The position numbers and the translations under genes were made by a program. Below are positions 1-14,547 of a stretch of DNA of 64,000 nucleotides, piece by piece (the stretch's first letter is position 1; the number at the start of each line of letters is the position of its first letter). Origin of the DNA: an uncultured virus (IMG/VR IMGVR_UViG_2061766007_000995) (Duplodnaviria; Heunggongvirae; Uroviricota; Caudoviricetes); the IMG/VR virus record IMGVR_UViG_2061766007_000995. The stretch is one strand, 5' to 3'. The notes under the pieces were generated by a model. That model did not search any database and had not been told where the DNA came from. It was given only the letters and a program-made list of their open reading frames with translations.

Positions 1-446
1 TCCTTTGACAGCTCTTCTCTGGCCTGAACAATTGAAACAGCATTGTACTTGCCGAAAACGTCCTTTGAAACGGAAAGAAGCTGAGGAAGAATCAGCTTTT
101 CATCATAGGACATTCCAGCGTTAGTATAGATGCTTTCAACGCTTGCAGGATTCAAATGAAAATTGAGAGAAATCTTGACTTCTGCGCCCTGAATGTCTTT
201 TGAATAAACTGCCGTAGGAATTGTCCATTTTATTGTGCGGACAATCATCTTCTTTACGGTGTCAACAAAGGGAATCTTGAAATGCAAACCAGAATCCTCA
301 ACTTCAACGACCTTTCCGAAACGGAGAAGGACACCCCTCTCTCCCTGCTCGATAGTGTAGAATGAACCAGCAATCAAGCCAATGGCCAGCAGACCTCCAC
401 AGAGTTTCAGTCCAGTCTTCAATGGATTCAGTCTAATTTCCTTCAT
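1..446 (-). CDS. SPFH/band 7/prohibitin family membrane protein (3' end runs off window)
   Basis: Manual translation MKEIRLNPLKTGLKLCGGLLAIGLIAGSFYTIEQGERGVLLRFGKVVEVEDSGLHFKIPFVDTV...; N-terminal hydrophobic helix plus the SPFH-typical GERGV..RFG / GLHFKIPF motif; AGGAGG RBS at 451-457; absent from the ORF track. Confidence 0.85.
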   Translation of the reverse strand, partial: MKEIRLNPLKTGLKLCGGLLAIGLIAGSFYTIEQGERGVLLRFGKVVEVEDSGLHFKIPFVDTVKKMIVRTIKWTIPTAVYSKDIQGAEVKISLNFHLNPASVESIYTNAGMSYDEKLILPQLLSVSKDVFGKYNAVSIVQAREELSK

Positions 447-495
447 TGCATCCTCCTTTAAAAATGAGCGAACAGACTTTCCGCTCCTGCCAGCA

Positions 496-524
496 AGTCT
501 AGTCTATGTGGAGAAATCTGTCAA
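496..524 (-). promoter_or_regulatory. sigma70-type promoter TTGACA-N17-TAGACT for the SPFH gene
   Basis: Consensus -35, 17-bp spacer, TANNNT -10 on the minus strand. Confidence 0.65.
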
Positions 525-543
525 GAAAAATTTTTCGCAACAT

Positions 544-549
544 TAAATA
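544..549 (+). promoter_or_regulatory. putative gp55-type late promoter (TAAATA)
   Basis: Same hexamer precedes virion genes throughout the window; here it precedes a structured non-coding segment. Confidence 0.45.
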
Positions 550-554
550 TATGC

Positions 555-651
555 TGCCCTAGGGTTGAGAGCCTCCCGAGGTCCCACCTCCTGCCTCGGG
601 AGGCATTCCTCCTCTCCTAGACGGGAAGGACTTGTTCCTTCCCGTTCTCTT
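555..651 (+). ncRNA. candidate small RNA with anti-Shine-Dalgarno loop
   Basis: Outer stem 559-563/616-620; 11-bp perfect stem 571-581/594-604 with loop TCCCACCTCCTG; terminator-like hairpin 621-630/636-645 followed by a pyrimidine run; no ORF. Confidence 0.45.
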
Positions 652-676
652 ATTCATTTTAAAATGGAGCTTCCTG

Positions 677-682
677 TAAATA
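677..682 (+). promoter_or_regulatory. putative late promoter (TAAATA)
   Basis: GTAAATAT about 32 nt upstream of ATG 715. Confidence 0.5.
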
Positions 683-714
683 TTTCAGTATCTTTCCCTA
701 GCTAGGATATTAAC

Positions 715-1740
715 ATGTCAGAATACTACAACAAAAGACTCTGTGGCAAATACCAAGTTATCATGGAATTTCCCCAGTCACTTAGGGAACTGCTCTGGAG
801 AGTCGCGTACTTCAGACGCAATCAACGTACTTGGGATGTGCTCATAAAATCATTTAAGCCATCAACTACTCATTATGATCTTGATGAAACAATCAAGAAC
901 AATACAAAAAAGGTTCTTGAAGAACTGCTAGCTTTCTATGAATCTGCTTCAACTCTTGATCCAATTCTATGGAAATCTACAGTAGGACCAAAATTCTTTC
1001 TTCAAAAGCCTTCATACTGGCCAGCGGCAAATGTTGCACTTAATTCAAATTCAGCAAACAAGCATCCAGTATATGATACGAATTTGAGAATTGAAAGTGG
1101 TCTTCAAACTCCTTTAGATGCATCGGCCATTAAAAATGGCGTATCAACAACTAAAAAGAATGCATTAAGGATGCAGGCAGGCAATCCATTTGACTTTACA
1201 AGCGATGAAACAAAGAATGGAGTTCCAGCCGCTGAAAATCTAACGCAAGACATTCAAATGATGATTGAATCAGCAAAAATGATTCTTACATCATATGGTT
1301 CTCCATATACTACAGAACGTGGTGAAGAATGTTCAAGATGGCTTTTCAATTCAAGAAATACGGCAATGAAAGCCATTGCTCTTATTGTACAGGAATGTCC
1401 ATGGATCATTCAAGCCATAAACAGCTTTAACTTTTTCACTGCTGATATCATCAACAACATTGGAAGTTTAAAACCAGCTGGAGACTACACGCAAATCTAT
1501 GGACATTTTGAATCTTCTGATGATTCAAAGGTAGACAGTCCAAGACATCTCCTTACTCCTCTCTGGTCAACTAAAGCCAATATCAATTCTTCCCAGTTGT
1601 CTTCTCTTGAAACTCAGGGAACATTCCAAATTAGATATTTCAATTCTGAAGGAAATCCAGGCGAACCTCAGGATCTTTTGAGTATCTACTGCAATGATAC
1701 ATACGAAGCAAACTCTTTTGCAACGAATAAAACCTACTAG
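715..1740 (+). CDS. hypothetical protein, probably late/virion
   Basis: 341-aa ORF between a TAAATA box and a terminator; no recognisable motif. Confidence 0.75.
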   Translation: MSEYYNKRLCGKYQVIMEFPQSLRELLWRVAYFRRNQRTWDVLIKSFKPSTTHYDLDETIKNNTKKVLEELLAFYESASTLDPILWKSTVGPKFFLQKPSYWPAANVALNSNSANKHPVYDTNLRIESGLQTPLDASAIKNGVSTTKKNALRMQAGNPFDFTSDETKNGVPAAENLTQDIQMMIESAKMILTSYGSPYTTERGEECSRWLFNSRNTAMKAIALIVQECPWIIQAINSFNFFTADIINNIGSLKPAGDYTQIYGHFESSDDSKVDSPRHLLTPLWSTKANINSSQLSSLETQGTFQIRYFNSEGNPGEPQDLLSIYCNDTYEANSFATNKTY

Positions 1741-1765
1741 CTTGCAAAATTATTCATAACATAAT

Positions 1766-1793
1766 GAAAAGGCTGGCAATTTGCCAGCCTTTC
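1766..1793. terminator. bidirectional intrinsic terminator
   Basis: AAAGGCTGGCA/TGCCAGCCTTT hairpin between convergent genes. Confidence 0.7.
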
Positions 1794-1813
1794 TGCTATT
1801 ATGCGTCAAACTT

Positions 1814-2353
1814 TTATGGATTGGGATTGTTTATCACATTGTCTGCAAGTTGATCATTGTCAAGCACTTCGAGAATTATTCTTCCACCAATCCATGTTGC
1901 CAGAACATAGAGATGCATATTTGGATCTCCCCATTGTGGACTGATCACGTCATTGGCCCATTCTGCATTCTGAATGTTCAAGGTTATTTCCGTATCGCTT
2001 GAATTTTCCAAGTAGATTCTCTTTTGAATGAAATAGTGCTTGTCTATTTCTCCATCTTTCCATACCTTTTCAAAATTCAGCGTAATGTTTCCTTCCGCAT
2101 ATATATAGACAACTTGTTCCGAAAGCGGAGAGATTGGAATAATTCCATCATCAAAGTCTGAACTATACAACGGTTCCAGATGAAAGGAATCCATCACATA
2201 TGGCAGAGAATTCCAGCTTGTGCTTCCATCACCAACTTTGACTCTTCCATATTCATCAACGCCAAATTCTCCTTCCAAAAGCACTGGATTGAGACTTCTC
2301 CATCTTGCTGTCGTGTCATATCTGTTTTTTATTCTTGTAAGTAACTTGCTCAT
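1814..2353 (-). CDS. virion fibre/decoration protein with Mtd_N (hyaluronidase N-terminal-like) domain
   Basis: WRSLNPVLLEGEFGVD...RVKVGDGSTSWNSLPY motif; C-terminal module shared with 6492 and 42636. Confidence 0.7.
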   Translation of the reverse strand: MSKLLTRIKNRYDTTARWRSLNPVLLEGEFGVDEYGRVKVGDGSTSWNSLPYVMDSFHLEPLYSSDFDDGIIPISPLSEQVVYIYAEGNITLNFEKVWKDGEIDKHYFIQKRIYLENSSDTEITLNIQNAEWANDVISPQWGDPNMHLYVLATWIGGRIILEVLDNDQLADNVINNPNP

Positions 2354-2370
2354 ATGGCTCTCCTAGCATT

Positions 2371-2715
2371 TTATCTAGCCTTCTTTACAAAGAGATGTTC
2401 AGCTACGCTTTTTGCAACCATTTCTCCAGCATCCTTCCATAAAGACTTGTACCTTCTTATATGCTTGGAGAGAAAATCCTGCGCCTCTTTATTACGCTTT
2501 AACGCTTCATCATCAATTGGACTTCTTCTTGCCAGAGTTCCTAGTGGAAGTACAACTCCTCCAATATCAGATGTAGTGACAGAAGCCACACCTATGCCGC
2601 TGGAAGACATGTCTTCCAGCACATCTTCTATATATACAGCTTCTTCTACAATGGATTCAAGCGTACTTAACAGATTAATGTATTCTGCAAAACTTGGCAG
2701 ACTCATTTCACACAT
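2371..2715 (-). CDS. hypothetical protein
   Basis: 114-aa ORF behind a TAAATA box, co-oriented with 1814. Confidence 0.6.
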   Translation of the reverse strand: MCEMSLPSFAEYINLLSTLESIVEEAVYIEDVLEDMSSSGIGVASVTTSDIGGVVLPLGTLARRSPIDDEALKRNKEAQDFLSKHIRRYKSLWKDAGEMVAKSVAEHLFVKKAR

Positions 2716-2729
2716 AAACGCTGTCTAGA

Positions 2730-2735
2730 TATTTA
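2730..2735 (-). promoter_or_regulatory. putative late promoter (TAAATA)
   Basis: TAAATA on minus strand 14 nt upstream of ATG 2715. Confidence 0.5.
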
Positions 2736-2771
2736 TCGTCTTATCTACAGATAAACTTTATTAAAATTTAC

Positions 2772-2927
2772 TGGCCATGGCTGAACGAAGTGAAGCCATG
2801 GCCATCGAGAATGCGTCAGCATTCTCGATTAATAAGAACTTGAAGATTTTTTCTTCATTCCTTCAATTTTCTCCATTGATGCCGCTGACGCGGCATTGCT
2901 GGCGCTTCACTGCGTTTCGCGCCAGCA
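2772..2927. repeat. four hairpins arranged as two inverted double-hairpin units
   Basis: HP1 2772-2782/2794-2804 loop GAACGAAGTGA; HP2 2804-2814/2819-2829 loop GTCA; HP3 2879-2885/2890-2896 loop TGAC; HP4 2897-2905/2919-2927 loop TTCACTGCGTTTC. Confidence 0.85.
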
Positions 2928-2967
2928 TCTCCTTTCTGCTCTATAAAAAATTTTTTCTCTCCTCTCT

Positions 2968-3077
2968 ATTAAGATCAATTAGAGCTGCTTTTTCCGGAAA
3001 GTGGCAAATAGATATGTGTCCTGGTGGCATCATGCGTCTTTATCTCCATTAAGATCAATTAGGCATGCTTTTTTCGG
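2968..3077. repeat. two 30-bp direct repeats 80 bp apart (iteron-like)
   Basis: ATTAAGATCAATTAGagcTGCTTTTTcCGG (2968-2997) vs ATTAAGATCAATTAGgcaTGCTTTTTtCGG (3048-3077), 26/30 identical. Confidence 0.8.
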
Positions 3078-3133
3078 CAACCCGATTGACAAATTTCCAG
3101 CCGTATGAGAAACTTGCTTGAGGAGGATGACTC

Positions 3134-3367
3134 ATGCCAAGGGAAAGACGTTCAGCGATGGAGAAGCTTCCTTTCAAGCCATCGCCTATGGAATTGGAGC
3201 ATGAAACCGCTTGTGATTTCGAGTGGCTTGGATGGAAAGATGCTCCTTCAAGATACTGGCCAATTGAGTCGGCGGCTTCATTTGATTTGGAACCGAATTG
3301 TCCAGCTAACTTTAAAAAGATAAGTCAACTGGAAACTGCAATGCAAAAGCTTATGTCATTGACTTAG
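3134..3367 (+). CDS. small hypothetical protein upstream of the TV-Pol-like gene
   Basis: GAGGAGG RBS at ~3120-3126; stop 9 nt before the next ATG; TTGACA at 3086. Confidence 0.65.
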   Translation: MPRERRSAMEKLPFKPSPMELEHETACDFEWLGWKDAPSRYWPIESAASFDLEPNCPANFKKISQLETAMQKLMSLT

Positions 3368-3376
3368 GAGAATGTC

Positions 3377-5587
3377 ATGAGTAGTTTTAGCAGTCCATTT
3401 GCCACGGATGAAAACTTTAGGCTAGATGGAGAATGGACGCTGGAACGTTTTTCCAGCGAAGTTTTCATCTCTTCAAAAGAGAGCGATGAAATGGAATCTA
3501 ATCTTTCGGATGAAGAAATTGCTCTTTCAACTAAAATGTGGCGCGATGAAATTCCATCCGAGTTTTATCCGAAGTCTCTTTTCAATCCATTGCTGGATGG
3601 TGATATCTATGAATATGGATGCACAAAGATAGTTGTTTGTCCAGAAATCTTCATGGAACTTGGATGTCTTAAAGAGGATGCCGCCAGACTTCTTGATGGC
3701 CATGGATATACAAAATTCTGGCAGCAGTGGAAAATAAGAAATGCCATTGTATCTGCTGCCATGGTTTCAAGCGTTGCATTGGCTCTTGCCTATGCCAGTC
3801 CAAATGCAGTTGAAAAGTCATTTTCATTGGGAAACTGTCTTCCAAGAAGCATTCTGTATCCATTTACAGGAAGAGAGGGCAAGGGATGCAGGCATCTTAT
3901 CAAAGATCCACCTATTCTAAAGGAAGAGTACAATGTCAGCATGTTCAATACCTTGGCTTTTATTGAACGTTCTGAAAAAATGTCTTCCGAGGAACGTTGG
4001 GCCAATGGAAATTTTTCTGGAAGCTATTTGAATGTTCAGAAGAGAATATGCAACATAACTAAAACAGATACAGCATTCGATTCTTCAAATCATACCTGGA
4101 AAAATGAAAAGCGATGGATTGGACGCCAAAATCTCTATTGTGCCACATCTGCAATGAAGCGTCTAGTCCATTTAGCTCGACTCGGTAGACTTCATTTTGT
4201 TGAGTTTGACTGCAAAAAACTCAAGCAATGGTTTATTGACAAATACGTTGATTCTGCATCAGGAAAGCTTAAAAAGGGAGCAAAAATCAATGCTAGAAAA
4301 GACTTTCCAGAAATATGGAAGAAATGGACTGGGTTGAGGCCTGCAGGCAAGGTCAACGCGAATGTTGAACAATTTTCAAGCATATCATATGCCATGAAAA
4401 AACATGCATTGGACATTCTTTCAGGAAATCTTGTATGGACAACTCATCTTGAAAAAATTGTCAGAGGTCTGTTTATTGGTTCCAATTGCGGAGCTACAAT
4501 GTATGAATTTGTTAAAAAGCCATCATTGTCTGCATTTTCAAGACCTCTTATTCTAGTCAATGAACGTCCTAGACCATGTTTCATTTCTTCAAATGAAATT
4601 GAAGTAAATGTAGAATTTAATAGAAGAGAAGTTGAAAATGCGTTAAACAGCCACTCTACTGAACTTGAGCGTGGTGCGATTGGACAGCTTCAGGCCATGC
4701 TGGCTGATGGAAAAAGGGATGGAGAAAAATGCTGGATGAGGTTTCATTTTAGAAGAAGAAGACATGGAAGATTTTATGGACATGGAAATTCCATACAGAT
4801 GCTTCCAAAATGGTTGAGAAAAAAGATATTTTCTTCCTATGCATCTCTTGATCTTAACTGCGCCATATTTTCCATATTGAAAAATCAGCTTGTAGACTAT
4901 AGATATGAGGGTTCAACAAATGAAATAGATGAAATGGTTCGAGACAAGGAAGGCTATAGACAGTCTCTTGTGGACAGCTCTCTTGCTATTTCTGTTGAAG
5001 ATGTCAAGCATCTATTGACAATGATTGGATATGGATGTACAATGAACGTCAAGAGAATTGTTGATGCGGCCGAATGGAATTGGCTTGTTGAAATCTATGG
5101 CATTGAACCTACTCTATATGAAACATATAGATATTCTCCTGGTTCGGCTCTAGCTAAAGGCGTTAATGATCCAGAACGTCTAATGCAGATTGCCGAATGG
5201 GCTTCAAATCCCAAGGTATTGAAGCTATGGAATGAAATGCAGGAAGGTGGAAGCTTTCTGTTCAAGAAAATGAAGCATGTATCTGGAGGACGTCCAGTTC
5301 TTTCCAATGCCTGGGGTGAAGAAATGGATGTTAAATCTAAACGTGTTACCTTTGGACAGAAACTCGCTCATATCTATCAGGGAGCAGAATCAATGCTTCT
5401 TTGGAAAATAATGGATGGATTTGATGCTGGAAGTGGTCCAGTTAAAAATTCGCTGTATGGCTTTGGCATTCCAATGCATGATGGATTTGGACTGCATAAG
5501 AGCATAGCTGATTATAATTCATCATTAGCCATAGAGAAATATGTTCATGAAAACGTCGGATGGAATTTAAAGTATGAGTGTGAATAG
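3377..5587 (+). CDS. family A DNA polymerase/T7 RNA polymerase superfamily protein (TV-Pol-like)
   Basis: Ordered palm/fingers motifs: HGRFYG..SIQMLPKWLRKKIF; motif A YASLDLNCA; motif B VKHLLTMIGYG; LAHIYQGAES; motif C IPMHDGF. The ~450-aa N-terminus is unrecognised. Confidence 0.65.
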   Translation: MSSFSSPFATDENFRLDGEWTLERFSSEVFISSKESDEMESNLSDEEIALSTKMWRDEIPSEFYPKSLFNPLLDGDIYEYGCTKIVVCPEIFMELGCLKEDAARLLDGHGYTKFWQQWKIRNAIVSAAMVSSVALALAYASPNAVEKSFSLGNCLPRSILYPFTGREGKGCRHLIKDPPILKEEYNVSMFNTLAFIERSEKMSSEERWANGNFSGSYLNVQKRICNITKTDTAFDSSNHTWKNEKRWIGRQNLYCATSAMKRLVHLARLGRLHFVEFDCKKLKQWFIDKYVDSASGKLKKGAKINARKDFPEIWKKWTGLRPAGKVNANVEQFSSISYAMKKHALDILSGNLVWTTHLEKIVRGLFIGSNCGATMYEFVKKPSLSAFSRPLILVNERPRPCFISSNEIEVNVEFNRREVENALNSHSTELERGAIGQLQAMLADGKRDGEKCWMRFHFRRRRHGRFYGHGNSIQMLPKWLRKKIFSSYASLDLNCAIFSILKNQLVDYRYEGSTNEIDEMVRDKEGYRQSLVDSSLAISVEDVKHLLTMIGYGCTMNVKRIVDAAEWNWLVEIYGIEPTLYETYRYSPGSALAKGVNDPERLMQIAEWASNPKVLKLWNEMQEGGSFLFKKMKHVSGGRPVLSNAWGEEMDVKSKRVTFGQKLAHIYQGAESMLLWKIMDGFDAGSGPVKNSLYGFGIPMHDGFGLHKSIADYNSSLAIEKYVHENVGWNLKYECE

Positions 5588-5595
5588 GAGGGTTA

Positions 5596-6078
5596 ATGAA
5601 AACGAATTTTGAAACAGAAGATGCAAAGCTTGAATGCTGCATTATTGAAGGGCGAAAAGGGAAATTTCCACTCAAGGCGCATCCTGATGATGCTGGATTT
5701 GACTTTTTTGCTCCTCTTGACATGGAAGAAGTGGAATTAAAACCTGGAGAAGACTATGTTGTACAGACTGGCGTAAGAGTTGGAGTTCCAAAGGGATGGG
5801 CCCTGCTTGGAGTAAACAAGTCTGGAGTCGCTACTAAAAAGAAGCTTACGCTTGGAGCAAAATTGATAGATGCTGGTTATACCGGAGAGCTTGGCATTCA
5901 TCTTGTCAACATTGGAACAAAAATTGCTAAAATAAGTCCTGGAGACAAGATTGCCCAGTTTGTCATGATTCCAATTGGAATCTCTACAGTTGAAGAATTA
6001 ACAGAAGAAGAATATTGGAGGAGAAACAGTGACACCGAAAGAGGCTGCGGAGGCTTTGGATCTACTGGAGAAAAATAG
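5596..6078 (+). CDS. dut: dUTPase (trimeric)
   Basis: DAGFDF, NKSG, IDAGYTGE, GDKIAQF, RGCGGFGSTG motifs. Confidence 0.95.
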   Translation: MKTNFETEDAKLECCIIEGRKGKFPLKAHPDDAGFDFFAPLDMEEVELKPGEDYVVQTGVRVGVPKGWALLGVNKSGVATKKKLTLGAKLIDAGYTGELGIHLVNIGTKIAKISPGDKIAQFVMIPIGISTVEELTEEEYWRRNSDTERGCGGFGSTGEK

Positions 6079-6433
6079 ATCCGTCTGGGAAAGTGGTGGA
6101 TGTTCCAATTCGAAGGAAAGTGAAGAAGGCACAATACCAGAAGAATATTCAGACTGCAAAGTATATCATATAGACATTTTATGCTGGTTTGGAAACGATC
6201 CATATCAGTTTAAAATTACAACTCTGCTTACTGATGCTGAAGCGTATGCCGCTTCAAACAAGATGGCTGGAGTTATGTATGAACTTGTGAAGACTGGACA
6301 GTCTTCATTTTCAATCAAACTAAGAGGAATGAATGGAAGCGTTGTTTCAAGAGTGTTTACAAACGTAGTATATATTGAGCATGACATTCCAGCATTCAAG
6401 GAAGTTGCTGAAGATGAATCTGTAGAGGAATAG
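6029..6433 (+). CDS. hypothetical protein (start uncertain)
   Basis: 134-aa ORF overlapping the dut 3' end. Confidence 0.55.
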   Translation: MTPKEAAEALDLLEKNRSVWESGGCSNSKESEEGTIPEEYSDCKVYHIDILCWFGNDPYQFKITTLLTDAEAYAASNKMAGVMYELVKTGQSSFSIKLRGMNGSVVSRVFTNVVYIEHDIPAFKEVAEDESVEE

Positions 6434-6461
6434 CACAAATAATGGTTCCAGCAGACAAAAA

Positions 6462-6467
6462 TAAATA
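6462..6467 (+). promoter_or_regulatory. putative late promoter (TAAATA)
   Basis: ATAAATAT 24 nt upstream of ATG 6492. Confidence 0.55.
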
Positions 6468-6491
6468 TTTCAGCAGTTAGATGCAAGCAGA

Positions 6492-7637
6492 ATGAATGAA
6501 CAAACAACAGCATTAATAGAAAATCAGCTAGACAGCTATCGTCTGCTGGAACCAATCAAAATAAGCGATACAGTCCATTCCTGGCTGAATATGCTCAATC
6601 GTATTGTTGACATATGCAGTATTGTTGGACATCCAGAAGAAGACAAGACTCTTAGACGATATTCCAACGTCTTTGGATTTATGACTTCTGAAGACAAACT
6701 CTATCTCGATGGAGTGAAATGGGGTCTTTATCCAAAAGTTAAGGATGAAGATGACAATCCAATTCAGGCCGTTGACATTGAAGCTAGAAAATTCAATATT
6801 CTTCATTCTTCTTCTAAAACTGCGAAAGTTTTTACGTCGGATGCGTCAATAAGCACTAGCAGTGGAAGAATTCCAGTTAATCAGGATTCAGTTGATGTTC
6901 AATGCATTAATGCCAGATCTGACGTATTGATGGAATTGACAGCTAATCCAGATTCCAACTGGTATTCCGAGAAGTTGATTTCAATTAAGGCTCTTGAAGA
7001 AGTGCGGATACAGTATTCAGGCAATGATTTTAGTTTTGTCAACAATTCGATATATCCTAATGTTGAGTGGTCTGAAAATGGAGTTCCACAAAGCACTCTT
7101 CTGCTGAAAGGAACTTTCATTGTATACAGGGCTACATTCATTCATTCAAGAATTCTGCTTGAAATTGTTGAAAATACTCAAATTATTGACAATTATAAGG
7201 CCGCTTCTGCCAAGCATGACAATTTAAGCTTTAATGGAGACATTGCTTTTGATGCTGATGCAAAAGTTTTAGATACATTGACAAAGATGGCCAACGGAGA
7301 AGCGGAAAGCAAAACTTTCTATCTCCATCATGATGGAGTTGTTTCTTCTGTTGCAGACATGCAAAGATGTGCGGCTACATTTGAAATGAATTATGTGATG
7401 GGAGAAAACGCTCAGTGGGATTCTGTTACATTAAGGTGCAGACCTGCCGATTCCAATGCATTCCTTGAATCTGATTTGATGGAACTTCAAAATGGTCGTC
7501 ATTTGGTTCAGATGTGGACAAAAGATAGAACTATGGTAGTCAAAGTTGACTATGCAGTGAATATGATGGCCAGAACAATTTCCATTCTTGGATTTAGCGT
7601 TATTGCAATGAATAGTGGTCGAACTTATGATGAATGA
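6492..7637 (+). CDS. putative virion fibre/structural protein
   Basis: N-terminal DTVHSWLNMLNRIVD resembles TIFRVWLEEINGIID of 42636; central module shared with 1814 and 42636; TAAATA box upstream. Confidence 0.55.
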   Translation: MNEQTTALIENQLDSYRLLEPIKISDTVHSWLNMLNRIVDICSIVGHPEEDKTLRRYSNVFGFMTSEDKLYLDGVKWGLYPKVKDEDDNPIQAVDIEARKFNILHSSSKTAKVFTSDASISTSSGRIPVNQDSVDVQCINARSDVLMELTANPDSNWYSEKLISIKALEEVRIQYSGNDFSFVNNSIYPNVEWSENGVPQSTLLLKGTFIVYRATFIHSRILLEIVENTQIIDNYKAASAKHDNLSFNGDIAFDADAKVLDTLTKMANGEAESKTFYLHHDGVVSSVADMQRCAATFEMNYVMGENAQWDSVTLRCRPADSNAFLESDLMELQNGRHLVQMWTKDRTMVVKVDYAVNMMARTISILGFSVIAMNSGRTYDE

Positions 7638-8121
7638 TATTCTTCTTAATGAAGTCTATGACTTTGAATTTAAGAACAGATGGAAGTCTGGAACCAGATT
7701 TATTCTTAATTCGGCCTGGCAGGGAAAGCTTGATACTGTTCAAAATCAAGCTAATACGAAATATCTCAGAAGAAAGATGATAGATGAATTAAGTCTTGAA
7801 GTTCTATCTATAACTGGAAAATATCTTGAATCTCTTGATCCAGTGGAATGCATGGTGTCATTTCCTCCAGATCATATAGACAATGAAATGATAAGACGAT
7901 TTTTCTACTACTATGGACGAAAATTTCAGCAAAATGCCATTATCTTTGTAGATGAAAGAGACATAATATGGACTCTTCCAACAAGACCATCTTCAACTTT
8001 TGGACCCATTGGACGCCTTATCAAAGGTTCAAAATTCATGATTCAGAATTTTTCTAATCTTGTTTCAAAGTTTATGCAACTTACTTATGAAATAGATCGG
8101 GTTAAGATTCCAACAAACTAA
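7615..8121 (+). CDS. hypothetical protein
   Basis: 168-aa ORF coupled to the upstream gene. Confidence 0.6.
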   Translation: MVELMMNDILLNEVYDFEFKNRWKSGTRFILNSAWQGKLDTVQNQANTKYLRRKMIDELSLEVLSITGKYLESLDPVECMVSFPPDHIDNEMIRRFFYYYGRKFQQNAIIFVDERDIIWTLPTRPSSTFGPIGRLIKGSKFMIQNFSNLVSKFMQLTYEIDRVKIPTN

Positions 8122-8180
8122 TTTTTTGCTTGCATTTTTCTGCGACATGATATATTTTCTTTACATGGAGGAAAGCTGAA

Positions 8181-8783
8181 ATGGCAGGAAAACGTGTGTC
8201 GCATAATTATGTCAATAATAAGGAATTTTATGAAGAGCTTGTAAAATGGCGCAATTCTGGCCAGGAAAAAATTCCAGACAAGATTGCACTTGCAATTATG
8301 CGTATCTGTGAAAATCTGGCTAGATCTGGGCGATTTGCAGGCTATACTTGGCGTCAGGAAATGATTTCGGATGCAATATTGGCCTGCATCCAGTTTTGTC
8401 GCAATTTTAACCCGGAGAAATCACAAAATCCATTTGCATTCTATACGCAGATTGCGTACAATGCTTTTGTGGCTAGAATTAAGACGGAAAAGGAGAAGCT
8501 TAATACCCATCTTGAATATCGAAGACAGCTTGAAATTCTTTATGACATTCCAACTGAAACTGATGATGAAGAAAATTCCAAGTACAATGCAATTAATGCA
8601 AGAAACAAGTCCTATATGGATACAATAGCGAAAGGACCAAAAAAGCAGCCCTTCTATAGGAAGGGATATTCAAAAGCTCAAAGAGAAAAGCTTGAGGCGG
8701 CTAGAAAAAACAAGCCAAAAACTATTGAAGATTTTCTTTCTGATGATGGAGAAGAAAATGGACAGATGGAAACGAACGTCTAA
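8181..8783 (+). CDS. 55: T4-like late-transcription sigma factor gp55
   Basis: NYVNNKEFYEEL..W; I..AIM.I.ENL....F.GYTW..EMI.DAI; FNPEKSQNPFAFYTQIAYNAF..RI..EK. Confidence 0.92.
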   Translation: MAGKRVSHNYVNNKEFYEELVKWRNSGQEKIPDKIALAIMRICENLARSGRFAGYTWRQEMISDAILACIQFCRNFNPEKSQNPFAFYTQIAYNAFVARIKTEKEKLNTHLEYRRQLEILYDIPTETDDEENSKYNAINARNKSYMDTIAKGPKKQPFYRKGYSKAQREKLEAARKNKPKTIEDFLSDDGEENGQMETNV

Positions 8784-8985
8784 TTCCGTCATTGTCAATG
8801 ATGACTCTACCGGATATGCAAATGCAAAACAGCGTGTTGCTTCGAGAATGAAAAGAAAGGAGCAGATGGATTTAGCGTTTGAACGCATTGATGCTCTTGA
8901 ACGAAAAGTCCATGGAATGGAAATGACTATGGCTGAGGTGATAAGTCTATGTCGTTCGCTTGCTGAATCCATTAAGTCCATGTAG
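8758..8985 (+). CDS. small coiled-coil hypothetical protein
   Basis: GGAG RBS; MDRWKRTSNSVIVNDDSTGY...; overlaps the gp55 end. Confidence 0.55.
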   Translation: MDRWKRTSNSVIVNDDSTGYANAKQRVASRMKRKEQMDLAFERIDALERKVHGMEMTMAEVISLCRSLAESIKSM

Positions 8986-9002
8986 ATTTTCCAGGAGGTG
9001 AA

Positions 9003-9884
9003 ATGATACTTGTAGACTACTCTGGTTCAATGTTTAGTGCAATTCATGTTGAACTGGCCAGAAATCCAGGCGCAAAGTGTGACATAAAGTTTCTTCGGCA
9101 TTGTCTTTTGAATCAGCTTCGTTCCTATTACAAAAAGTTCAAGGAAGACTATGGAGAAATGGTCATATGTCTTGAAGGTGGTTCATGCTGGAGAAAGGAA
9201 ATATTTCCAAACTACAAGGCTGGAAGAGTCAAGGCCAGAATTGATTCTGGAATAGACTGGGAAGAAGTCTTCAAAAACATGAATCAGATTACAGATGAAC
9301 TTAGGGAAGTTACTCCATGGAAGTTCATGCAGATTAGAGGACTTGAAGCTGATGACGTTATTGCCATTCTGGCCAGAAACATGGAAAAGATTGGCCATGT
9401 AAATCTTTTTGAAGACGTTGAAAAGACGATTATTGTATCCAATGATAAGGACTATGCCCAGCTTCAGAAGCTTCCATGGATTTCGCAGTATCTTCCACGC
9501 AAGGGAACAACCTCAAAGGAAATGGATCCTGAACATGCCTTGATAGACTTGATAGTGCATGGAGACAAGGCTGATGGCATTCCAAACATCAATTCAAATA
9601 TAAATTCCTTTGTTGATGGAGCTAGACAGAAGCCAGTGTCTAGAGACCTTATGAGTGGCATATTTTCTTCTGGAACTGCATTTCTTACAGAAAGTCAGAA
9701 GACTAGATATAAGGAGAACGAAACGCTTATTTCCTTTGACTGCATTCCAGAAGAATATGTTGAGAAAGTTCTAGATGTATGGAAGGAAAGCAGACCAAAG
9801 GGTGGCGGAATGAAGCTGTTCACATATCTGGCCAAAAATGGGCTAAAAGAGCAGCTGTCGCGAATTGATGACTTTAAATTGTAA
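9003..9884 (+). CDS. rnh: T4-like RNase H (5'-3' exonuclease/FEN family)
   Basis: MILVD, WRKEIFPNYKAGR, LEADDVIA, IVSNDKDYAQL, GDKADGIPNI motifs. Confidence 0.93.
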   Translation: MILVDYSGSMFSAIHVELARNPGAKCDIKFLRHCLLNQLRSYYKKFKEDYGEMVICLEGGSCWRKEIFPNYKAGRVKARIDSGIDWEEVFKNMNQITDELREVTPWKFMQIRGLEADDVIAILARNMEKIGHVNLFEDVEKTIIVSNDKDYAQLQKLPWISQYLPRKGTTSKEMDPEHALIDLIVHGDKADGIPNINSNINSFVDGARQKPVSRDLMSGIFSSGTAFLTESQKTRYKENETLISFDCIPEEYVEKVLDVWKESRPKGGGMKLFTYLAKNGLKEQLSRIDDFKL

Positions 9885-9911
9885 TGCAGGCCTTAAACGG
9901 CTGGTTAGGAG

Positions 9912-10894
9912 ATGAGGAATATGGAAAAGGATGAAATAAAGTACAGCCTTCTGGAAATTATGGAAGGTCCAAAACGCATCAACAGCATTTCGCATACGCT
10001 GGTGTTTGACTATCTAATGGAAGCCACACAGGAGCAGGATAGATTTGAGGCCTTCATGCGCGTTCTGCTTAGAAATGCCTGGTGGGCCTACTATGGCATT
10101 TGCATTATGGCTTCAGATATTATTCCTTCAGATGATTTGCTTGCTGAAGAGAAAAACAATCTGAAAGATTTGAAATATCGTCATGGTTCAATCAATGAAT
10201 TGACCATTCTCAACATGTTCATGTCGTACTTTGACCGTGGACTGTTTGCCGAGAAAAAACATCGTGAATATTTTGTAAGGTATATGGCCGAGACGCTTTC
10301 AGCAGATGAATATGAATTTGTTGTAAACTGCGTATTCAAGAAGTATGCCAAGGAAATTCTTCCGTGTCTAAAGAAGATGTATGAAAATGGACATCTGGCC
10401 AGGGAAGTTCATTCTCTGTTTTCCTTTGCAATGAATCACAAGCATGACAAGGTTCTCAAGTTCACCAAGACCTGTCTCCCAGTAAAAAAGCTTAAAATGT
10501 ACTGGAAGATAGGAAATATTATTTTTGACAAGAAAAAAATGCTTGACAAAAAGAAGGCCGGTGTTATATTGGATTTTATAAAGAAGACTAGTCAACCATC
10601 GCTGAATTTTGCTGGCATCGACTATCCTCAGATTTGCGAAATCTGGGTTGAAGATGAGCTTCCAATAATGGTTGTGACTGTGGAGAGAGCCTTCATTCTA
10701 AAGCGTCCTGAATTGTTTGATGACAAGAGGTTCATAGAGCTTTTCAATGCAGGCTACAAGAATTTCCTATGCGTCCATGGTTCAAGAGTCNNNNNNNNNN
10801 TGCTCTTGCTCCAACGGATGCAGTTATTGCTCCAGAAACCGAAGTGAAGCTGGCAGAGTTCAATGGAACGTATTATGTCTTCAAAAATGACTAG
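9912..10894 (+). CDS. hypothetical protein (gap at 10791-10800)
   Basis: ORF continues after the gap as ALAPTDAVIAPETEVKLAEFNGTYYVFKND* to TAG 10894. Confidence 0.6.
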
Positions 10895-10911
10895 ATTTAA
10901 GGAGAATTGAT

Positions 10912-11887
10912 ATGACACAGAAAATGATTTTTGATGATGTAGCTGAGTATGAACGCTTCAATAAAATGTACAACGACTATATTCAGAATGGTATTGAAGC
11001 TAGCAAGGCTCTGGCCATGACAAAGGAAGCATTTTGGCCTTCTAAAAACTTGAGCGAGAAAGGTAGAAAGCTGTATGATGACTATATTTTCAAATATGGT
11101 CTTTCTCCTNNNNNNNNNNATTTCCTACATATGCGAAGAGAATGGCTTTCTCAAGTTTCACAAGTTCAAGGTCGCCAAGGCAAAGCATGTCAAGATGCCT
11201 CTGCTTATTCTTGGAATGAGCGTGAATGTTGTGATACTGGAAGATGCAAAGGGAAAAGAGATTACNNNNNNNNNNGTTGAAGCCAGTAAGGCTCTAGCCA
11301 TGACAAAGGAAGCATTTTGGCCTTCTAAAAGCTTGAGTGAGGAAGGTAGAAAGCTGTATGATGACTATATTTTCAAATATGGTCTTTCTCCTGAAGATGC
11401 CTATATTTTAGCTTCCCGCAAGGGTGAAACAAAGGAAAAAGCAGACAAGATTGTTGAAAAGAAAAAAGCTGAATCTAATGAGACGGCAGTTCAGAAATGG
11501 CTGAATGACTGGACAATTCCAGCAGACAGGTGGCTTGATACGTTAAAGCCATTCAATAAATTTTTTGATGATTCTTTCTTCAAGGAATTTGGAATGCCAT
11601 GCTGGCTTGACTGGAATGGACGTCATAGAAATGGTCAAAATAAGGAAAAGAAGGGATCATGCAAATGTGGCTGTGAAGAATCCAAGCCTGCTCTCAAGGG
11701 AGAAGACATTGTAAATGATGAGATTAAAAAGGTGCTTGGAGACATTCCCAAGGAAGAAGTAAATGAGAAGAACACTAAAGTCAAAATTGTCAAGAATGAT
11801 CCTAATGACTACGAATACAAAGTTGATCACACTTCTCCTGATGGGAAGTCTAATTTCTACTGCCACAAAATCTTTAAAAAGTTTTAA
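10912..11887 (+). CDS. hypothetical protein (gap-interrupted, internal allelic duplicate)
   Basis: AGGAG RBS; EASKALAMTKEAFWPSK...YIFKYGLSP appears on both sides of N gaps. Confidence 0.6.
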
Positions 11888-11920
11888 TAGGTTTCAATCA
11901 CATTAAAAGGAGGAAACATT

Positions 11921-12373
11921 ATGGAAGAAGTCAAAGAAATGAATCCTGGAGTTGAAGGGAATGCGTTTACTGAACCAGCGGCCGCTCCGCAAGCCCAGCA
12001 AACCGAAGAAACCGAAGAAACCCAAAAATCCAGTGAAGCCGGTGAAGCCAGCGAAGTAGTTGAAACACAGTCTGGTCTGGAAACTCCAGAGGAAAGAAAT
12101 CCATTTCTTGAATACATGAGAAACGCCTTTGCCAAAGAGCATATTGACGCTTTCATGTCTACGTTGAATGATGATCAGAAAAGCTTTATCTACGTTTTCT
12201 GCTCTGGCTTCGAAACTGCAATTGGTCGTCATATTGTAGGCGTATATGACAGTTCCTACATTGAAGGCTATCACTTCACAAAGGAAGTTCTAGACTCGCT
12301 TAGAATCGTTATCAAGCCAGTTGACGTAAAGGATTCCGATCTGAAGTTTACAATTGTAGCCCAGCTTGTGTAA
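11921..12373 (+). CDS. hypothetical protein with acidic low-complexity N-terminus
   Basis: AGGAGG RBS; followed by a terminator. Confidence 0.75.
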   Translation: MEEVKEMNPGVEGNAFTEPAAAPQAQQTEETEETQKSSEAGEASEVVETQSGLETPEERNPFLEYMRNAFAKEHIDAFMSTLNDDQKSFIYVFCSGFETAIGRHIVGVYDSSYIEGYHFTKEVLDSLRIVIKPVDVKDSDLKFTIVAQLV

Positions 12374-12402
12374 CTAGTTAATTTTATTGAAAGTTTAATT
12401 TT

Positions 12403-12427
12403 AAGAGGGGACCACTGGTCCCCTCTT
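12403..12427 (+). terminator. intrinsic terminator
   Basis: AAGAGGGGACC/GGTCCCCTCTT hairpin followed by CTT. Confidence 0.65.
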
Positions 12428-12428
12428 C

Positions 12429-12457
12429 TTGACAGCAGGGAGAAAAACTGCTATCAA
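12429..12457 (+). promoter_or_regulatory. sigma70-type promoter TTGACA-N17-TATCAA with extended TG
   Basis: Consensus -35 and spacing. Confidence 0.55.
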
Positions 12458-12466
12458 TAGGTCAGC

Positions 12467-12673
12467 ATGGAGGAAGAAGCAATGGAAGCTGTATGGGGAT
12501 TTTTAATTATGTGCCTGCAGGCTGCATTCAAGGCTTTTATTGCTATGATCTGCGTATTCCTGTTGACAATAGTTTTCCTACTGCTAATAAGATTTCTTGA
12601 AATGCTCTTTGAAATGTCCGAAGACGGCAAAAATTTTATTATGCATTGGATTAAAAAGAAATGTCAGCGTTAG
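12467..12673 (+). CDS. small membrane protein
   Basis: Long hydrophobic stretch. Confidence 0.55.
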   Translation: MEEEAMEAVWGFLIMCLQAAFKAFIAMICVFLLTIVFLLLIRFLEMLFEMSEDGKNFIMHWIKKKCQR

Positions 12674-12798
12674 CCATTATCACGCTGTTTGTGCTGTCTA
12701 TTGCTGGAACAATCTGTGGATTGATTCTTTCCATCATAATGATTATGATATCCGTAATTGGATATGTGATTATGCTTGCAATAAATCGGTGCAGGTAG
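12661..12798 (+). CDS. small membrane protein (45 aa, not in ORF track)
   Basis: MSALAIITLFVLSIAGTICGLILSIIMIMISVIGYVIMLAINRCR*; tiles between 12467 and 12805. Confidence 0.5.
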   Translation: MSALAIITLFVLSIAGTICGLILSIIMIMISVIGYVIMLAINRCR

Positions 12799-12804
12799 GA
12801 TTTT

Positions 12805-13008
12805 ATGCTTTATTCCATAGTCTCCTTTTTTCTAATAATGTTGACCGTTTCTTCATTTCTAGTGTCGGCAATGCACTATGGAATGACTATATGGTATAGA
12901 AAAAATCTAGAATCTAGAAAATATCATCAAAGACATGCAAAAATTGTCTTTCGTGCAGGTCTTGCATTGCTTGCGGCCGTGACTTTTTTAAACTTGTTTT
13001 TAGCGTAG
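12805..13008 (+). CDS. small two-TM membrane protein
   Basis: Two hydrophobic segments; AGGA RBS. Confidence 0.55.
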   Translation: MLYSIVSFFLIMLTVSSFLVSAMHYGMTIWYRKNLESRKYHQRHAKIVFRAGLALLAAVTFLNLFLA

Positions 13009-13013
13009 GAGAA

Positions 13014-13310
13014 ATGATGAATAAAGATTCAATGTTCAAAATTTCAATGCGGATTGATTCATTTGAAGGAAAATATGGATTAACGTTTGAAGAAGACATT
13101 TCGGCCGAAAGATTGGCCAAAATATGCAGAAAGGACATGAAGCTTGGTGGTGGCTGTCCTCTTGGAAATGTTCTAAGCTGTCCTTTTCTTTATGAACCCT
13201 ATAGAAAAAGGCATATCGGAGAGCGTCCAATTAGCTGTGACGTTGTAACCGCGAATGATTGGATAGAACTGTATAAAATTATTAATGAAGAGCAGGAGAA
13301 GACAAATTGA
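13014..13310 (+). CDS. Cys-rich hypothetical protein, paralogue of 13307
   Basis: LAKIC...CPLG...CPF...CDVVT..W. Confidence 0.65.
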   Translation: MMNKDSMFKISMRIDSFEGKYGLTFEEDISAERLAKICRKDMKLGGGCPLGNVLSCPFLYEPYRKRHIGERPISCDVVTANDWIELYKIINEEQEKTN

Positions 13311-13558: not shown

Positions 13559-13606
13559 AGGACCTTTTTCAATAGACTGGCTGGAAAACTGAAGCAGGGA
13601 TGAGAC

Positions 13607-13936: not shown

Positions 13937-13961
13937 CACCTTTGGCGTCCTATGCTAGAAA
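13933..13961 (+). promoter_or_regulatory. sigma70-type promoter TTGACA-N17-TAGAAA with extended TG
   Basis: Consensus -35 and spacing. Confidence 0.55.
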
Positions 13962-14012
13962 TGGACCTGTCAAGAGAAACTGGCATCCAACATTAAATCA
14001 AGGAGCAATTCC

Positions 14013-14523: not shown

Positions 14524-14547
14524 GGAACTGCATTAAATGCAGAATGT

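What the first reader, a model, noticed from the sequence alone, without database searches (positions are those of the whole stretch)
544..651. Candidate late small RNA displaying the 16S anti-Shine-Dalgarno sequence in a hairpin loop
Seen: a TAAATA box, then a ~100-nt ORF-free GC-rich unit with an 11-bp stem whose 12-nt loop is UCCCACCUCCUG, then a terminator-like hairpin. The downstream gene has its own TAAATA at 677. CACCUCCU (585-592) is identical to the 16S rRNA 3' anti-SD. CACCUCCUG is a perfect 9-nt complement of the rnh RBS CAGGAGGUG (8992-9000), although SD-like matches are expected by chance. Established: C-rich loop sRNAs such as S. aureus RNAIII and RsaE repress translation by pairing with SD sequences. 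Inference: a phage RNA that masks SD-led host or early mRNAs late in infection.
Basis: partly seen in the sequence, partly recalled or inferred. Interest (0 to 1): 0.75.

Follow-up and report, generated by a model that had tools for sequence, protein, structure and literature searches.

The report
Conserved phage small RNA with anti-Shine-Dalgarno loop
A giant T4-like phage carries a conserved, roughly 100-base RNA gene whose exposed loop copies the ribosome's mRNA-docking sequence, so it may block ribosome-binding sites late in infection, though no transcript has been seen.

Summary
Window 544-660 holds a TAAATA box, a long hairpin (11-bp stem 571-581/594-604, loop UCCCACCUCCUG) and a terminator hairpin (621-645). 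It lies between divergent genes and has no conserved ORF.

Two relatives carry the same unit: a 352-kb phage contig and a 1.6-kb metagenome contig. The neighbouring gene is only 59-65% identical in DNA. In the unit, six base pairs change on both sides (four in the hairpin, two in the terminator), while the loop, the outer stem and the CU-rich linker stay fixed apart from one deleted C. This is a real structured RNA with a sequence-constrained anti-SD loop.

TAAATA is a genuine promoter-like box here. In the relative, 75% of boxes lie within 80 nt upstream of ORF starts, including head, tail and lysis genes, and the window encodes a gp55-like late sigma factor.

Against: there are only three sequences and no RNA data. 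The box flanks are atypical (rank 86/88). The rnh complement is not conserved.

Best reading (about 0.4): a late trans-acting RNA that masks SD sites. It is a new variant of the C-rich-loop sRNAs.

The parts
534..553 (+). Conserved promoter-like block TTCGCAACATTAAATATATG; the TAAATA core is at 544-549
   Evidence: Identical in window, L001 and L016. In L016 the sequence further upstream is unrelated. TAAATA lies upstream of ORF starts genome-wide. The flanks are atypical for the late-box profile, rank 86/88.
555..556 (+). Predicted transcription start (inferred)
   Evidence: In T4 the late box lies at -13 to -6 relative to the start (passage read in PMC1524935). Applied to box end 549, this puts +1 near 555, three nt before the outer stem.
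559..620 (+). Long hairpin: outer stem P1 (559-564 with 614, 616-620; 567-569 with 609-611) enclosing hairpin 1
   Evidence: MFE and centroid are the same in all three homologues. The 9 outer pairs are invariant.
571..604 (+). Hairpin 1: 11-bp stem (571-581/594-604) and 12-nt apical loop (582-593)
   Evidence: 4 of 11 pairs change on both sides in L016, with 1 A.C mismatch; 32 of 33 cells are paired.
585..592 (+). CACCUCCU, the same as the 16S rRNA 3' tail (anti-SD), inside the apical loop
   Evidence: The loop is invariant in the three sequences except for one C deleted in L016. P(unpaired) 0.89-0.90.
608..617 (+). Second CU-rich tract CCUCCUCUCC (linker and 3' strand of P1), partly paired
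   Evidence: Invariant in the three sequences. Mean P(unpaired) 0.43-0.46.
621..660 (+). Intrinsic-terminator-like hairpin (621-630/636-645) with a U-rich tail
   Evidence: Second-best terminator-like site in window 1-20000. 2 of 10 pairs change on both sides and 30/30 cells are paired. There is a tail on the + strand only. The tail is weak in L016, where the scan does not flag it.
677..1740 (+). Downstream late unit: TGTAAATAT box (677-682), conserved leader with palindrome CCTAGCTAGG (697-706), and a 341-aa gene of unknown function (715-1740)
   Evidence: Syntenic with the RNA in 3 of 3 relatives. No Pfam or PHROG family. AF2 pLDDT 36.
3..524 (-). Divergent SPFH/Band_7 gene (3-446, runs off the window) with SD AAGGAGGA and a sigma-70-like promoter TTGACA-17-TAGACT (524..496)
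   Evidence: L016 has TTGACA-17-TATGCT at the same relative place. The - strand mRNA therefore starts downstream of the RNA unit and does not contain it.
8181..8783 (+). gp55-like late sigma factor
   Evidence: phrog_234 'late sigma transcription factor', E 9.7e-42. The same family is found in the relative.
8992..9000 (+). rnh ribosome-binding site CAGGAGGUG, a perfect 9-nt complement of the loop
   Evidence: It is the only complement of 8 nt or more in the window outside the element itself. It is not conserved in the relative.

Best explanation
Window 544-660 is a free-standing gene for a small RNA of about 100 nt in an uncultured giant T4-like phage. It is most likely transcribed on the + strand from the conserved TAAATA box, which is the core of this phage's gp55-type late promoter. 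The predicted start is near 555 and the end is at the hairpin-plus-U terminator (621-660). The RNA folds into one long hairpin whose 12-nt apical loop displays CCACCUCCUG, the sequence of the 16S rRNA 3' tail.

Inferred mechanism: the loop, and perhaps the second CCUCCUCUCC tract, pairs with Shine-Dalgarno sequences and hinders 30S binding. The C-rich loops of RsaE-type sRNAs work this way. In this phage the late (box-driven) mRNAs have short leaders without SDs, while about half of the other genes have GGAG/GAGG before the start. Such an RNA would therefore disfavour SD-led (early phage and host) messages and spare the late ones. That would be an RNA counterpart of what RegB does to early SDs in T4.

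Shown here: the structure, its conservation with covariation, the constrained loop, the behaviour of the box, and the SD dichotomy. Inferred: transcription, timing, trans action and targets.
For: 1. Structure. MFE -51.3 kcal/mol, z -5.74. The same fold is predicted for all three homologues, with loop P(unpaired) 0.89-0.90.

2. Conservation against a diverged background. The adjacent CDS is 58.7% (L016) and 65.2% (L001) identical in DNA, and third codon positions match in 26/65 and 32/65. Within the RNA, window against L016: outer stem 0/18 differences, loop 1/12 (an indel), other unpaired positions 1/19, hairpin-1 stem 9/22, terminator stem 4/20, terminator loop 5/6.

3. Covariation. 89/90 cells are paired and 6 pairs change on both sides. 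Sliding the partners gives 0-1 such pairs and 49-60% paired.

4. Strand.
- The conserved block with the box lies 9 nt before the outer stem. It is conserved even where the upstream DNA differs.
- The U-rich tail is on the + strand only.
- The - strand sigma-70-like promoter of the neighbour lies downstream of the unit in both the window and L016.

5. The box is real. In G001 there are 88 TAAATA, and 66 (75%) lie within 80 nt upstream of an ORF start on the same strand, against 2-15% for 14 permuted hexamers. In the window the figures are 7/12 against 5-20%. 56/88 have an in-ORF ATG 0-45 nt downstream, peaking at 19-27 nt. Of 64 box genes scanned, 25 have a named PHROG function, and 18 of those are virion or lysis proteins: major head, portal, protease, sheath, tube, baseplate, fibres, adaptor, head closure, endolysin. 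gp55-like sigma is found. The T4 late consensus TATAAATA comes from a passage read in PMC1524935.

6. SD dichotomy. By the first-ATG rule in G001, GGAG/GAGG occurs in the last 20 nt in 4/53 box genes against 152/289 others, Fisher p 1e-10. Loop-TIR duplex energy has median -5.45 (box genes, n=64) against -9.25 kcal/mol (others, n=270), p 9e-13. The real loop is second-best of 21 when compared with 20 shuffles of itself.

7. The element is single-copy and is the only hairpin with CCTCC in its loop among 94 perfect hairpins.

8. It is not coding.

9. Precedent. An unpaired UCCC motif of RsaE binds mRNAs and prevents initiation-complex formation (abstract of PMC2790875). RegB cuts GGAG in the translation initiation regions of T4 early mRNAs, and late transcripts are resistant (passages of PMC3014915).
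Against: - There are only three independent sequences, and window and L001 are identical in hairpin 1. All four hairpin-1 covariations therefore come from one lineage split. The tool itself warns that its shuffle counts are not probabilities.
- No RNA evidence of any kind.
- The flanks of this box fit the late-box profile badly: rank 86 of 88, score -7.3 against a median of +4.5 for boxes followed by an ATG, with T rather than G at -1. Part of the penalty comes from the G+C-rich transcribed part. The same CATTAAATAT form precedes two ORF leaders with 5' hairpins in G001.
- In L016 the terminator tail is weak and the scan does not flag it.
- The one unpaired cell (A.C in L016) would be a G.U pair on the - strand.
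- The - strand folds about as well (-51.8 kcal/mol, z -4.7).
- The only long complement in the window (rnh RBS) is not conserved, and no conserved specific target was found.
- The SD core is short. Shuffled C-rich loops also give substantial duplex energies, with medians of -6.6 to -9.6.
- A global mask would need the RNA in large excess over SD sites. That is unknown.
Confidence: 0.4

Rival explanations
1. An ordinary trans-acting sRNA with one or a few specific targets in the host or phage. The anti-SD likeness is just the usual C-rich seed that lands on ribosome-binding sites. There is no class-wide switch between SD-led and SD-less messages.
For: Known C-rich-loop sRNAs act on defined target sets (abstract of PMC2790875). 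The invariant outer stem and linker (0/18 and 1/19 differences) suggest sequence-specific contacts beyond the SD core. The loop carries extra fixed bases (UCC..UG) around CCUCC.
Against: No conserved extended complement was found in 64 kb plus 352 kb of phage DNA. The host genome is unknown, so host targets could not be searched. The strong SD-less versus SD-rich split of gene classes would then be a coincidence.
Confidence: 0.2
2. A protein-binding mimic of the 16S rRNA 3' tail. The RNA would titrate or recruit a factor that recognises the anti-SD region, such as bS21, S1, IF3 or a nuclease, rather than pairing with mRNAs.
For: The OLE RNA P6 region carries CCUCCU paired to an SD-like strand and binds bS21 (passages of PMC12054373). 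Giant phages that encode bS21 and express it late are reported (search listing and start of abstract of PMC9723584). Here a second CCUCCU tract (608-613) pairs with GAG (567-569) in the invariant outer stem.
Against: The apical anti-SD is unpaired, not in an SD/ASD-like duplex. The second tract forms only 3 pairs with the purine strand. No bS21 gene (PF01165) was found in the 352-kb relative. No Rfam match to OLE or any other family.
Confidence: 0.1
3. A cis-acting 5' leader or attenuator of the downstream 341-aa late gene. Transcripts from the 544 box either stop at the hairpin or read through into the gene.
For: The unit lies directly upstream of the homologous gene in 3 of 3 relatives. In L016 the terminator tail is weak. 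The motif CCCTAG occurs on the + strand only at 557 and 696, that is, in the RNA 5' end and in the gene's leader.
Against: The gene has its own conserved consensus-like box (TGTAAATAT) 32 nt before its ATG in all three relatives. In L001 about 250 nt of unrelated DNA separates the terminator from that box. The terminator stem is kept by compensatory changes.
Confidence: 0.1
4. The functional strand is the - strand, or the DNA itself. The hairpin would then display CAGGAGGUGGGA, an SD-like loop that could decoy 30S subunits. Alternatively the palindromes are protein-binding DNA sites.
For: The - strand folds as well (-51.8 kcal/mol, z -4.7). The single A.C mismatch in L016 becomes G.U on the - strand. 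All other pairs are Watson-Crick and do not tell the strands apart. CCCTAGGG is a palindrome.
Against: There is no conserved promoter-like sequence to the right of the unit, where the three relatives differ completely. No U-tract follows the structure on the - strand. The neighbour's - strand promoter lies downstream of the unit. The conserved TAAATA block is oriented for the + strand.
Confidence: 0.07
5. Only a strong terminator or insulator pair between divergent transcription units, and the anti-SD loop is a chance sequence.
For: CACCTCCT is no more frequent than chance. Similar G+C-rich terminators (GGGAGGG..CCCTCCC) end ordinary genes in the relative.
Against: The flanking genes diverge, so there is nothing to terminate except a transcript that starts in the spacer. 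The loop, outer stem and linker are nearly invariant while the stems and the terminator loop vary. A mere terminator does not require that.
Confidence: 0.05

Closest known systems
C-rich (UCCC-motif) sRNAs of Bacillota such as RsaE/RoxS
   Same: A short stable RNA with its own terminator. An unpaired C-rich motif in a hairpin loop is complementary to SD sequences. In RsaE it binds mRNAs and prevents formation of the initiation complex (abstract of PMC2790875). The window's loop begins with UCCC.
   Different: No sequence or Rfam relationship. It is encoded by a lytic giant phage and apparently tied to a late promoter. The loop is a full 8-nt copy of the 16S tail rather than a short C-run. The possible action is class-wide rather than on a metabolic regulon. 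Expression and targets are untested.
T4 RegB endoribonuclease (functional analogue, not a relative)
   Same: A T4-type phage device aimed at the SD (GGAG) of early messages. RegB cuts GGAG/U in the translation initiation regions of early genes, and late transcripts are resistant (passages of PMC3014915; start of abstract of PMC1702504 in the listing).
   Different: RegB is a protein nuclease made early. Here the agent would be an RNA made late that masks rather than cuts. No RegB-annotated PHROG was hit among the 138 ORFs of 110-260 aa scanned in the relative; the other ORFs were not scanned.
OLE RNA P6 SD/ASD mimic bound by bS21
   Same: A non-ribosomal RNA carrying an exact CCUCCU copy of the 16S tail (passages of PMC12054373).
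   Different: In OLE the copy is paired with an SD-like strand inside a 600-nt RNA and serves protein binding. Here the main copy is in an open loop of a 100-nt RNA. There is no Rfam OLE match.
T4 small RNAs C and D, and the late non-coding or antisense RNAs of giant phage AR9
   Same: Phage-encoded small or non-coding transcripts of unknown role. AR9 antisense RNAs are mostly late (passage of PMC5312081). [quoted passage not shown]
   Different: No sequence relation was tested or known, and none is described as an anti-SD mimic in the passages read.

Membership tests
SD-masking C-rich-loop sRNAs (RsaE/RoxS type) | Unpaired C-rich motif in a hairpin loop, complementary to SD | tested here: met
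   Loop UCCCACCUCCUG; P(unpaired) 0.89-0.90 in 3 of 3 homologues.
SD-masking C-rich-loop sRNAs (RsaE/RoxS type) | Sequence and structure homology to the described families | tested here: not met
   No Rfam family at gathering score. The best sub-threshold hit is RAGATH-23, 27.7 bits against a cut-off of 92.6.
SD-masking C-rich-loop sRNAs (RsaE/RoxS type) | Discrete transcript with its own promoter and terminator | tested here: inconclusive
   A conserved box and a covarying terminator are present. No RNA run was available.
SD-masking C-rich-loop sRNAs (RsaE/RoxS type) | Pairs with the SD region and blocks 30S initiation-complex formation | not testable with these tools
   Only duplex energies were computed.
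T4-type (gp55-dependent) late transcription unit | Phage encodes a gp55-family late sigma factor | tested here: met
   Window 8181-8783, phrog_234, E 9.7e-42. Also found in G001, together with a clamp (phrog_223).
T4-type (gp55-dependent) late transcription unit | TATAAATA-like box used genome-wide upstream of virion genes | tested here: met
   75% of 88 boxes in G001 lie within 80 nt upstream of ORF starts. 18 of 25 box genes with a named function are virion or lysis genes.
T4-type (gp55-dependent) late transcription unit | This particular box matches the phage's late-box consensus (ATTG-TAAATA-TTTT) | tested here: inconclusive
   The core is exact and conserved in 3 of 3, but the flanks rank 86 of 88. 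The same CATTAAATAT form heads two ORF leaders in G001.
Intrinsic (factor-independent) terminator | G+C-rich hairpin directly followed by a U-rich tract | tested here: met
   Window 620-646 has 11 pairs and is flagged. L001 has a UUUUCU tail. L016's tail has only 4 T in 8 and is not flagged.
OLE-P6-like bS21-binding SD/ASD duplex mimic | CCUCCU paired with an SD-like strand in a helix | tested here: not met
   The apical CCUCCU is unpaired. The second tract forms 3 pairs only.
Small protein gene | ORF conserved in relatives | tested here: not met
   The + frame is shifted by the 1-nt indel in L016. L001 has no - strand ORF of 20 aa or more.

The most novel reading that the evidence does not exclude
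The RNA is one half of a phage-encoded translational class switch. Late in infection a gp55-driven RNA copy of the 16S anti-SD tail coats SD sequences of host and early phage messages. The phage's late mRNAs have short SD-less leaders and so escape, taking over the ribosomes. This would be an RNA-based counterpart of T4 RegB.
Probability: 0.3. Interest if true: 0.85.

Novelty: new variant of a known kind. Interest (0 to 1): 0.68.

Why it matters
[quoted passage not shown] My text searches found no described phage RNA that mimics the anti-SD: whose listings I read, not the papers. A conserved late RNA that displays the ribosome's mRNA-docking sequence would suggest a simple way for a virus to sort messages by how they recruit ribosomes. 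This is especially so in a phage whose late genes have dropped the SD while its other genes keep it. The idea is directly testable with SD-led and SD-less reporters. The SD-less late gene class matters in its own right for gene calling and for understanding translation in giant phages.

Tried and rejected
- No RNA holder was listed for window 1-5000. The two runs of unknown kind hold the element unchanged as short contigs, 439-688 and 545-703. That adds no covariation and says nothing about expression.
- More family members were sought without success:
  - exact and gapped DNA patterns in viral contigs. Of the 41 loci, only the known contig matched the model. Of the 5 loci, only the known contig did.
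  - Genome contigs (0 matches).
  - Band_7-anchored loci in viral contigs (11 other loci) and in genome contigs (8 loci), none with the element.
  - one metagenome scan, which gave L016, L015 (no upstream DNA) and the known contig again.
- blastn of window 1-6000 against the phage records found no match.
- Paralogues: the covariance model finds one copy in the window and one in the 352-kb contig. The 21-bit second hit is an ordinary gene-end terminator.
- The neighbouring 341-aa protein stays unknown: no Pfam or PHROG family, an AF2 model with pLDDT 36 that was too poor to search with, and no usable Atlas hit.
- The host could not be inferred. The nearest Band_7 homologues are 44-53% identical and come from assorted metagenome-assembled bacterial genomes labelled Proteobacteria, Gammaproteobacteria, Pseudomonadales, Cellvibrionaceae and Zoogloeaceae.
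- A conserved sigma-70 promoter for the + strand was rejected: the -35 positions differ between window and L016.
- rnh as a specific target was rejected.
- No whole genome is held for the window.

Full report
WHAT IS THERE

The window is part of an uncultured giant phage. It encodes T4 RNase H, anaerobic NrdD, dUTPase, TET-associated glycosyltransferases and tail proteins, and one tRNA-Gln. Its RNase H is closest to those of T4-like cyanophages, at 37-39% identity. The window is colinear with positions 217405 to 157719 of a 352,419-bp IMG/VR contig (G001), as a mosaic of 68-98% identity. No genome is held for the window, and blastn of its first 6 kb finds nothing among the phage records.

The finding lies in the 268-nt spacer between two divergent genes. 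One is an SPFH/Band_7 gene on the - strand (3-446). The other is a 341-aa ORF on the + strand (715-1740).

- TAAATA at 544-549
- an 11-bp stem, 571-581/594-604
- the loop UCCCACCUCCUG, 582-593
- a second hairpin, 621-630/636-645, with a U-rich tail
- a second TAAATA at 677
- CAGGAGGTG at 8992-9000, in front of rnh

The + strand RNA folds to -51.3 kcal/mol (z -5.7). The hairpin sits on an outer stem (559-564 and 567-569 with 609-620), which makes one long stem-loop followed by the terminator.

IS IT MORE THAN CHANCE?

The octamer alone is not: 2 found against 1.6 expected. The decisive evidence is comparative.

The downstream protein led to the 352-kb contig (L001, 56% amino-acid identity) and to a 1.6-kb metagenome contig (L016, 57% by that search). 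Both carry the unit directly upstream. The adjacent coding DNA is only 65% and 59% identical, and third codon positions match in 32/65 and 26/65.

I built a covariance model and refitted the three sequences to it. On that alignment 89 of 90 cells pair. Six pairs change on both sides, four in hairpin 1 and two in the terminator. Sliding the partners gives 0-1 such pairs.

The differences between window and L016 fall as follows:

| Region | Differences |
|---|---|
| Hairpin-1 stem | 9/22 |
| Terminator stem | 4/20 |
| Terminator loop | 5/6 |
| Outer stem | 0/18 |
| Apical loop | 1/12 (one C deleted) |
| Other unpaired positions | 1/19 |

This is the pattern of an RNA whose stems need only to pair, but whose apical loop, outer stem and CU-rich linker need their sequence. 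The short ORFs across the unit are not conserved.

There are limits. Only three sequences exist, and window and L001 are identical in hairpin 1. No further member was found in any collection. The element is single-copy in both genomes. The 21-bit second hit is a normal gene-end terminator of the same GGGAGGG/CCCTCCC style. No Rfam family matches.

STRAND AND PROMOTER

A 20-nt block, TTCGCAACATTAAATATATG (534-553), is identical in all three sequences. In L016 it is the left edge of the conservation.

TAAATA is depleted in the window, 12 against 23 expected. In G001, 66 of 88 copies (75%) lie within 80 nt upstream of an ORF start on the same strand, against 2-15% for the 14 permuted hexamers. 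In the window the figure is 7 of 12. The ATG follows the box by 19-27 nt in most cases.

Of 64 box-preceded genes scanned in G001, 25 have a named PHROG function. Eighteen of those are virion or lysis proteins: major head, portal, protease, sheath, tube, baseplate, fibres, adaptor, head closure and endolysin. The window encodes a gp55-family late sigma factor at 8181-8783, and G001 has it too, with a sliding clamp.

The T4 late consensus is TATAAATA at -13 to -6 (passage of PMC1524935). TAAATA is therefore the core of this phage's late promoter. Applied to the box at 544, it predicts a start near 555, three nt before the outer stem.

The U-rich tail follows the terminator on the + strand only. 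The Band_7 gene has its own sigma-70-like promoter (TTGACA-17-TAGACT, 524..496), and L016 has TTGACA-17-TATGCT at the same relative place. The - strand mRNA therefore starts downstream of the unit.

Several points weigh against this reading:
- The flanks of this particular box rank 86 of 88 on the profile built from boxes followed by an ATG, with T instead of G at -1. Part of that penalty comes from the G+C-rich transcribed region. The same CATTAAATAT form heads two ORF leaders with 5' hairpins in G001.
- The L016 terminator tail is weak.
- The - strand folds as well as the + strand.
- The lone A.C mismatch in L016 would be G.U on the - strand.

No RNA run was listed. The two runs that hold the element hold it unchanged as short contigs.

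HOW IT MOST LIKELY WORKS

The loop is predicted to be about 90% unpaired in all three homologues. It is the 16S tail sequence: CACCUCCU by my own knowledge of 16S rRNA, and CCUCCU as cited in PMC12054373.

The late, box-driven genes almost never have an SD. Using the first ATG of each ORF in G001, GGAG/GAGG occurs in the last 20 nt of 4/53 box genes against 152/289 others (p 1e-10). In the window the figures are 1/7 against 28/63, which is not significant. An SD-favouring start-selection rule gives the same direction (p-values).

The loop forms much stronger duplexes with the initiation regions of non-box genes (median -9.25 kcal/mol, 42% at or below -10) than with those of box genes (-5.45, 9%). 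That result largely restates the SD content, and shuffled C-rich loops also score -6.6 to -9.6.

I therefore read the unit as a late trans-acting small RNA that pairs with SD regions. Its design resembles RsaE-type RNAs, in which an unpaired UCCC motif binds mRNAs and prevents initiation-complex formation (abstract of PMC2790875). In this phage it would discriminate against SD-led early and host messages. T4 attacks early SDs with the RegB nuclease, and late transcripts are resistant (passages of PMC3014915). No RegB-annotated family appeared among the 138 mid-sized ORFs scanned in G001.

Transcription, timing, trans action and targets are all inferred.

The specific rnh pairing is not conserved. 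The rnh protein is 99% identical in G001 but its RBS reads GGGAGGATG. No other conserved long complement was found.

RIVALS

- A specific-target sRNA (0.2).
- A protein-binding mimic of the 16S tail, as in OLE P6 with bS21 (0.1). The apical copy is unpaired, and G001 has no bS21 gene.
- A cis leader of the downstream late gene (0.1). It is syntenic in 3 of 3 relatives. But the gene has its own consensus box, about 250 nt is inserted in L001, and the terminator covaries.
- A - strand or DNA-level element (0.07).
- A mere terminator pair (0.05).

COMPARISON AND NOVELTY

It works like the C-rich-loop, SD-masking sRNAs, but it is not a member of any described family. My text searches found no described phage-encoded anti-SD mimic RNA (listings only). 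The T4 review says that no trans-acting regulatory RNA had been functionally characterised from T4.

Earlier notes of this scan describe similar late anti-SD RNAs in other T4-like and AR9-like phages. They are unchecked leads, not support, and I could not compare their sequences with this one.

I rate the finding a new variant of a known kind.

VERDICT

| Claim | Judgement |
|---|---|
| Observation | confirmed |
| Real, conserved, structured non-coding RNA element | about 0.85 |
| Driven by the late box | about 0.6 |
| SD-masking late RNA as a whole | about 0.4 |
| Interest | 0.68 |

Noticed in passing
G001 whole contig; window boxes at 677, 2735(-), 6462, 17004, 44031(-), 50879(-), 54500(-), 63240: Genes behind the TAAATA late box have short leaders (ATG 19-27 nt after the box) almost without SD: 4/53 against 152/289 for other genes in G001. 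This is a class-wide split in how messages recruit ribosomes.
   Followed up: yes
window 8181-8783 (+): gp55-family late sigma factor (phrog_234, E 1e-41), lying between an S-AdoMet-lyase-like gene and rnh.
   Followed up: yes
window 19652-23716, also 44276, 45247, 55138 and others: The window is a scaffold with runs of 10 N. Blocks on either side of several gaps overlap in the relative's coordinates. The DUF2828/DUF7788 gene that appears split over three overlapping ORFs (21206-23716) is therefore probably assembly redundancy, not a frameshift.
   Followed up: partly
window 557-564 and 697-706: The palindromes CCCTAGGG and CCTAGCTAGG lie just downstream of the two adjacent late boxes and are conserved in L001 and L016. 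CCCTAG occurs on the + strand only at these two places in 64 kb. They could be a shared protein site or an RNA-leader pairing.
   Followed up: partly
L001 2705-2950: The relative has about 250 nt of unrelated DNA, with a 62-aa ORF, inserted between the RNA's terminator and the late box of the downstream gene.
   Followed up: no
G001 326551, 329745, 350920 (+): Three paralogous genes (phrog_23051, two also with an HNH hit) share a leader: a late box, then a hairpin 8-9 nt after it, then TAAACACCAAATCAT, then an SD. This is a conserved structured 5' leader family.
   Followed up: no
G001 338296 (-): A TAAATA box followed by about 120 nt without an ORF start and with strong predicted structure (-41.6 kcal/mol). 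It may be another late non-coding RNA.
   Followed up: no
window 30875-32788 vs G001 185494-188493: NrdD is 637 aa in the window but 999 aa in the relative, with about 1.1 kb extra at the point matching window 31250. It could be an intein or another insertion.
   Followed up: no
window 496-524 (-); L016 161-189 (-): A near-consensus sigma-70-type promoter (TTGACA-17-TAGACT in the window, TATGCT in L016) drives the divergent upstream gene. The host RNA polymerase therefore probably reads classical -35/-10 promoters, and the early gene has a strong SD (AAGGAGGA).
   Followed up: partly
window 1767-1793 (-): The strongest terminator-like hairpin of the first 20 kb (12 pairs) lies between the convergent 341-aa gene and the tail-fibre-like gene at 1814-2353.
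   Followed up: no
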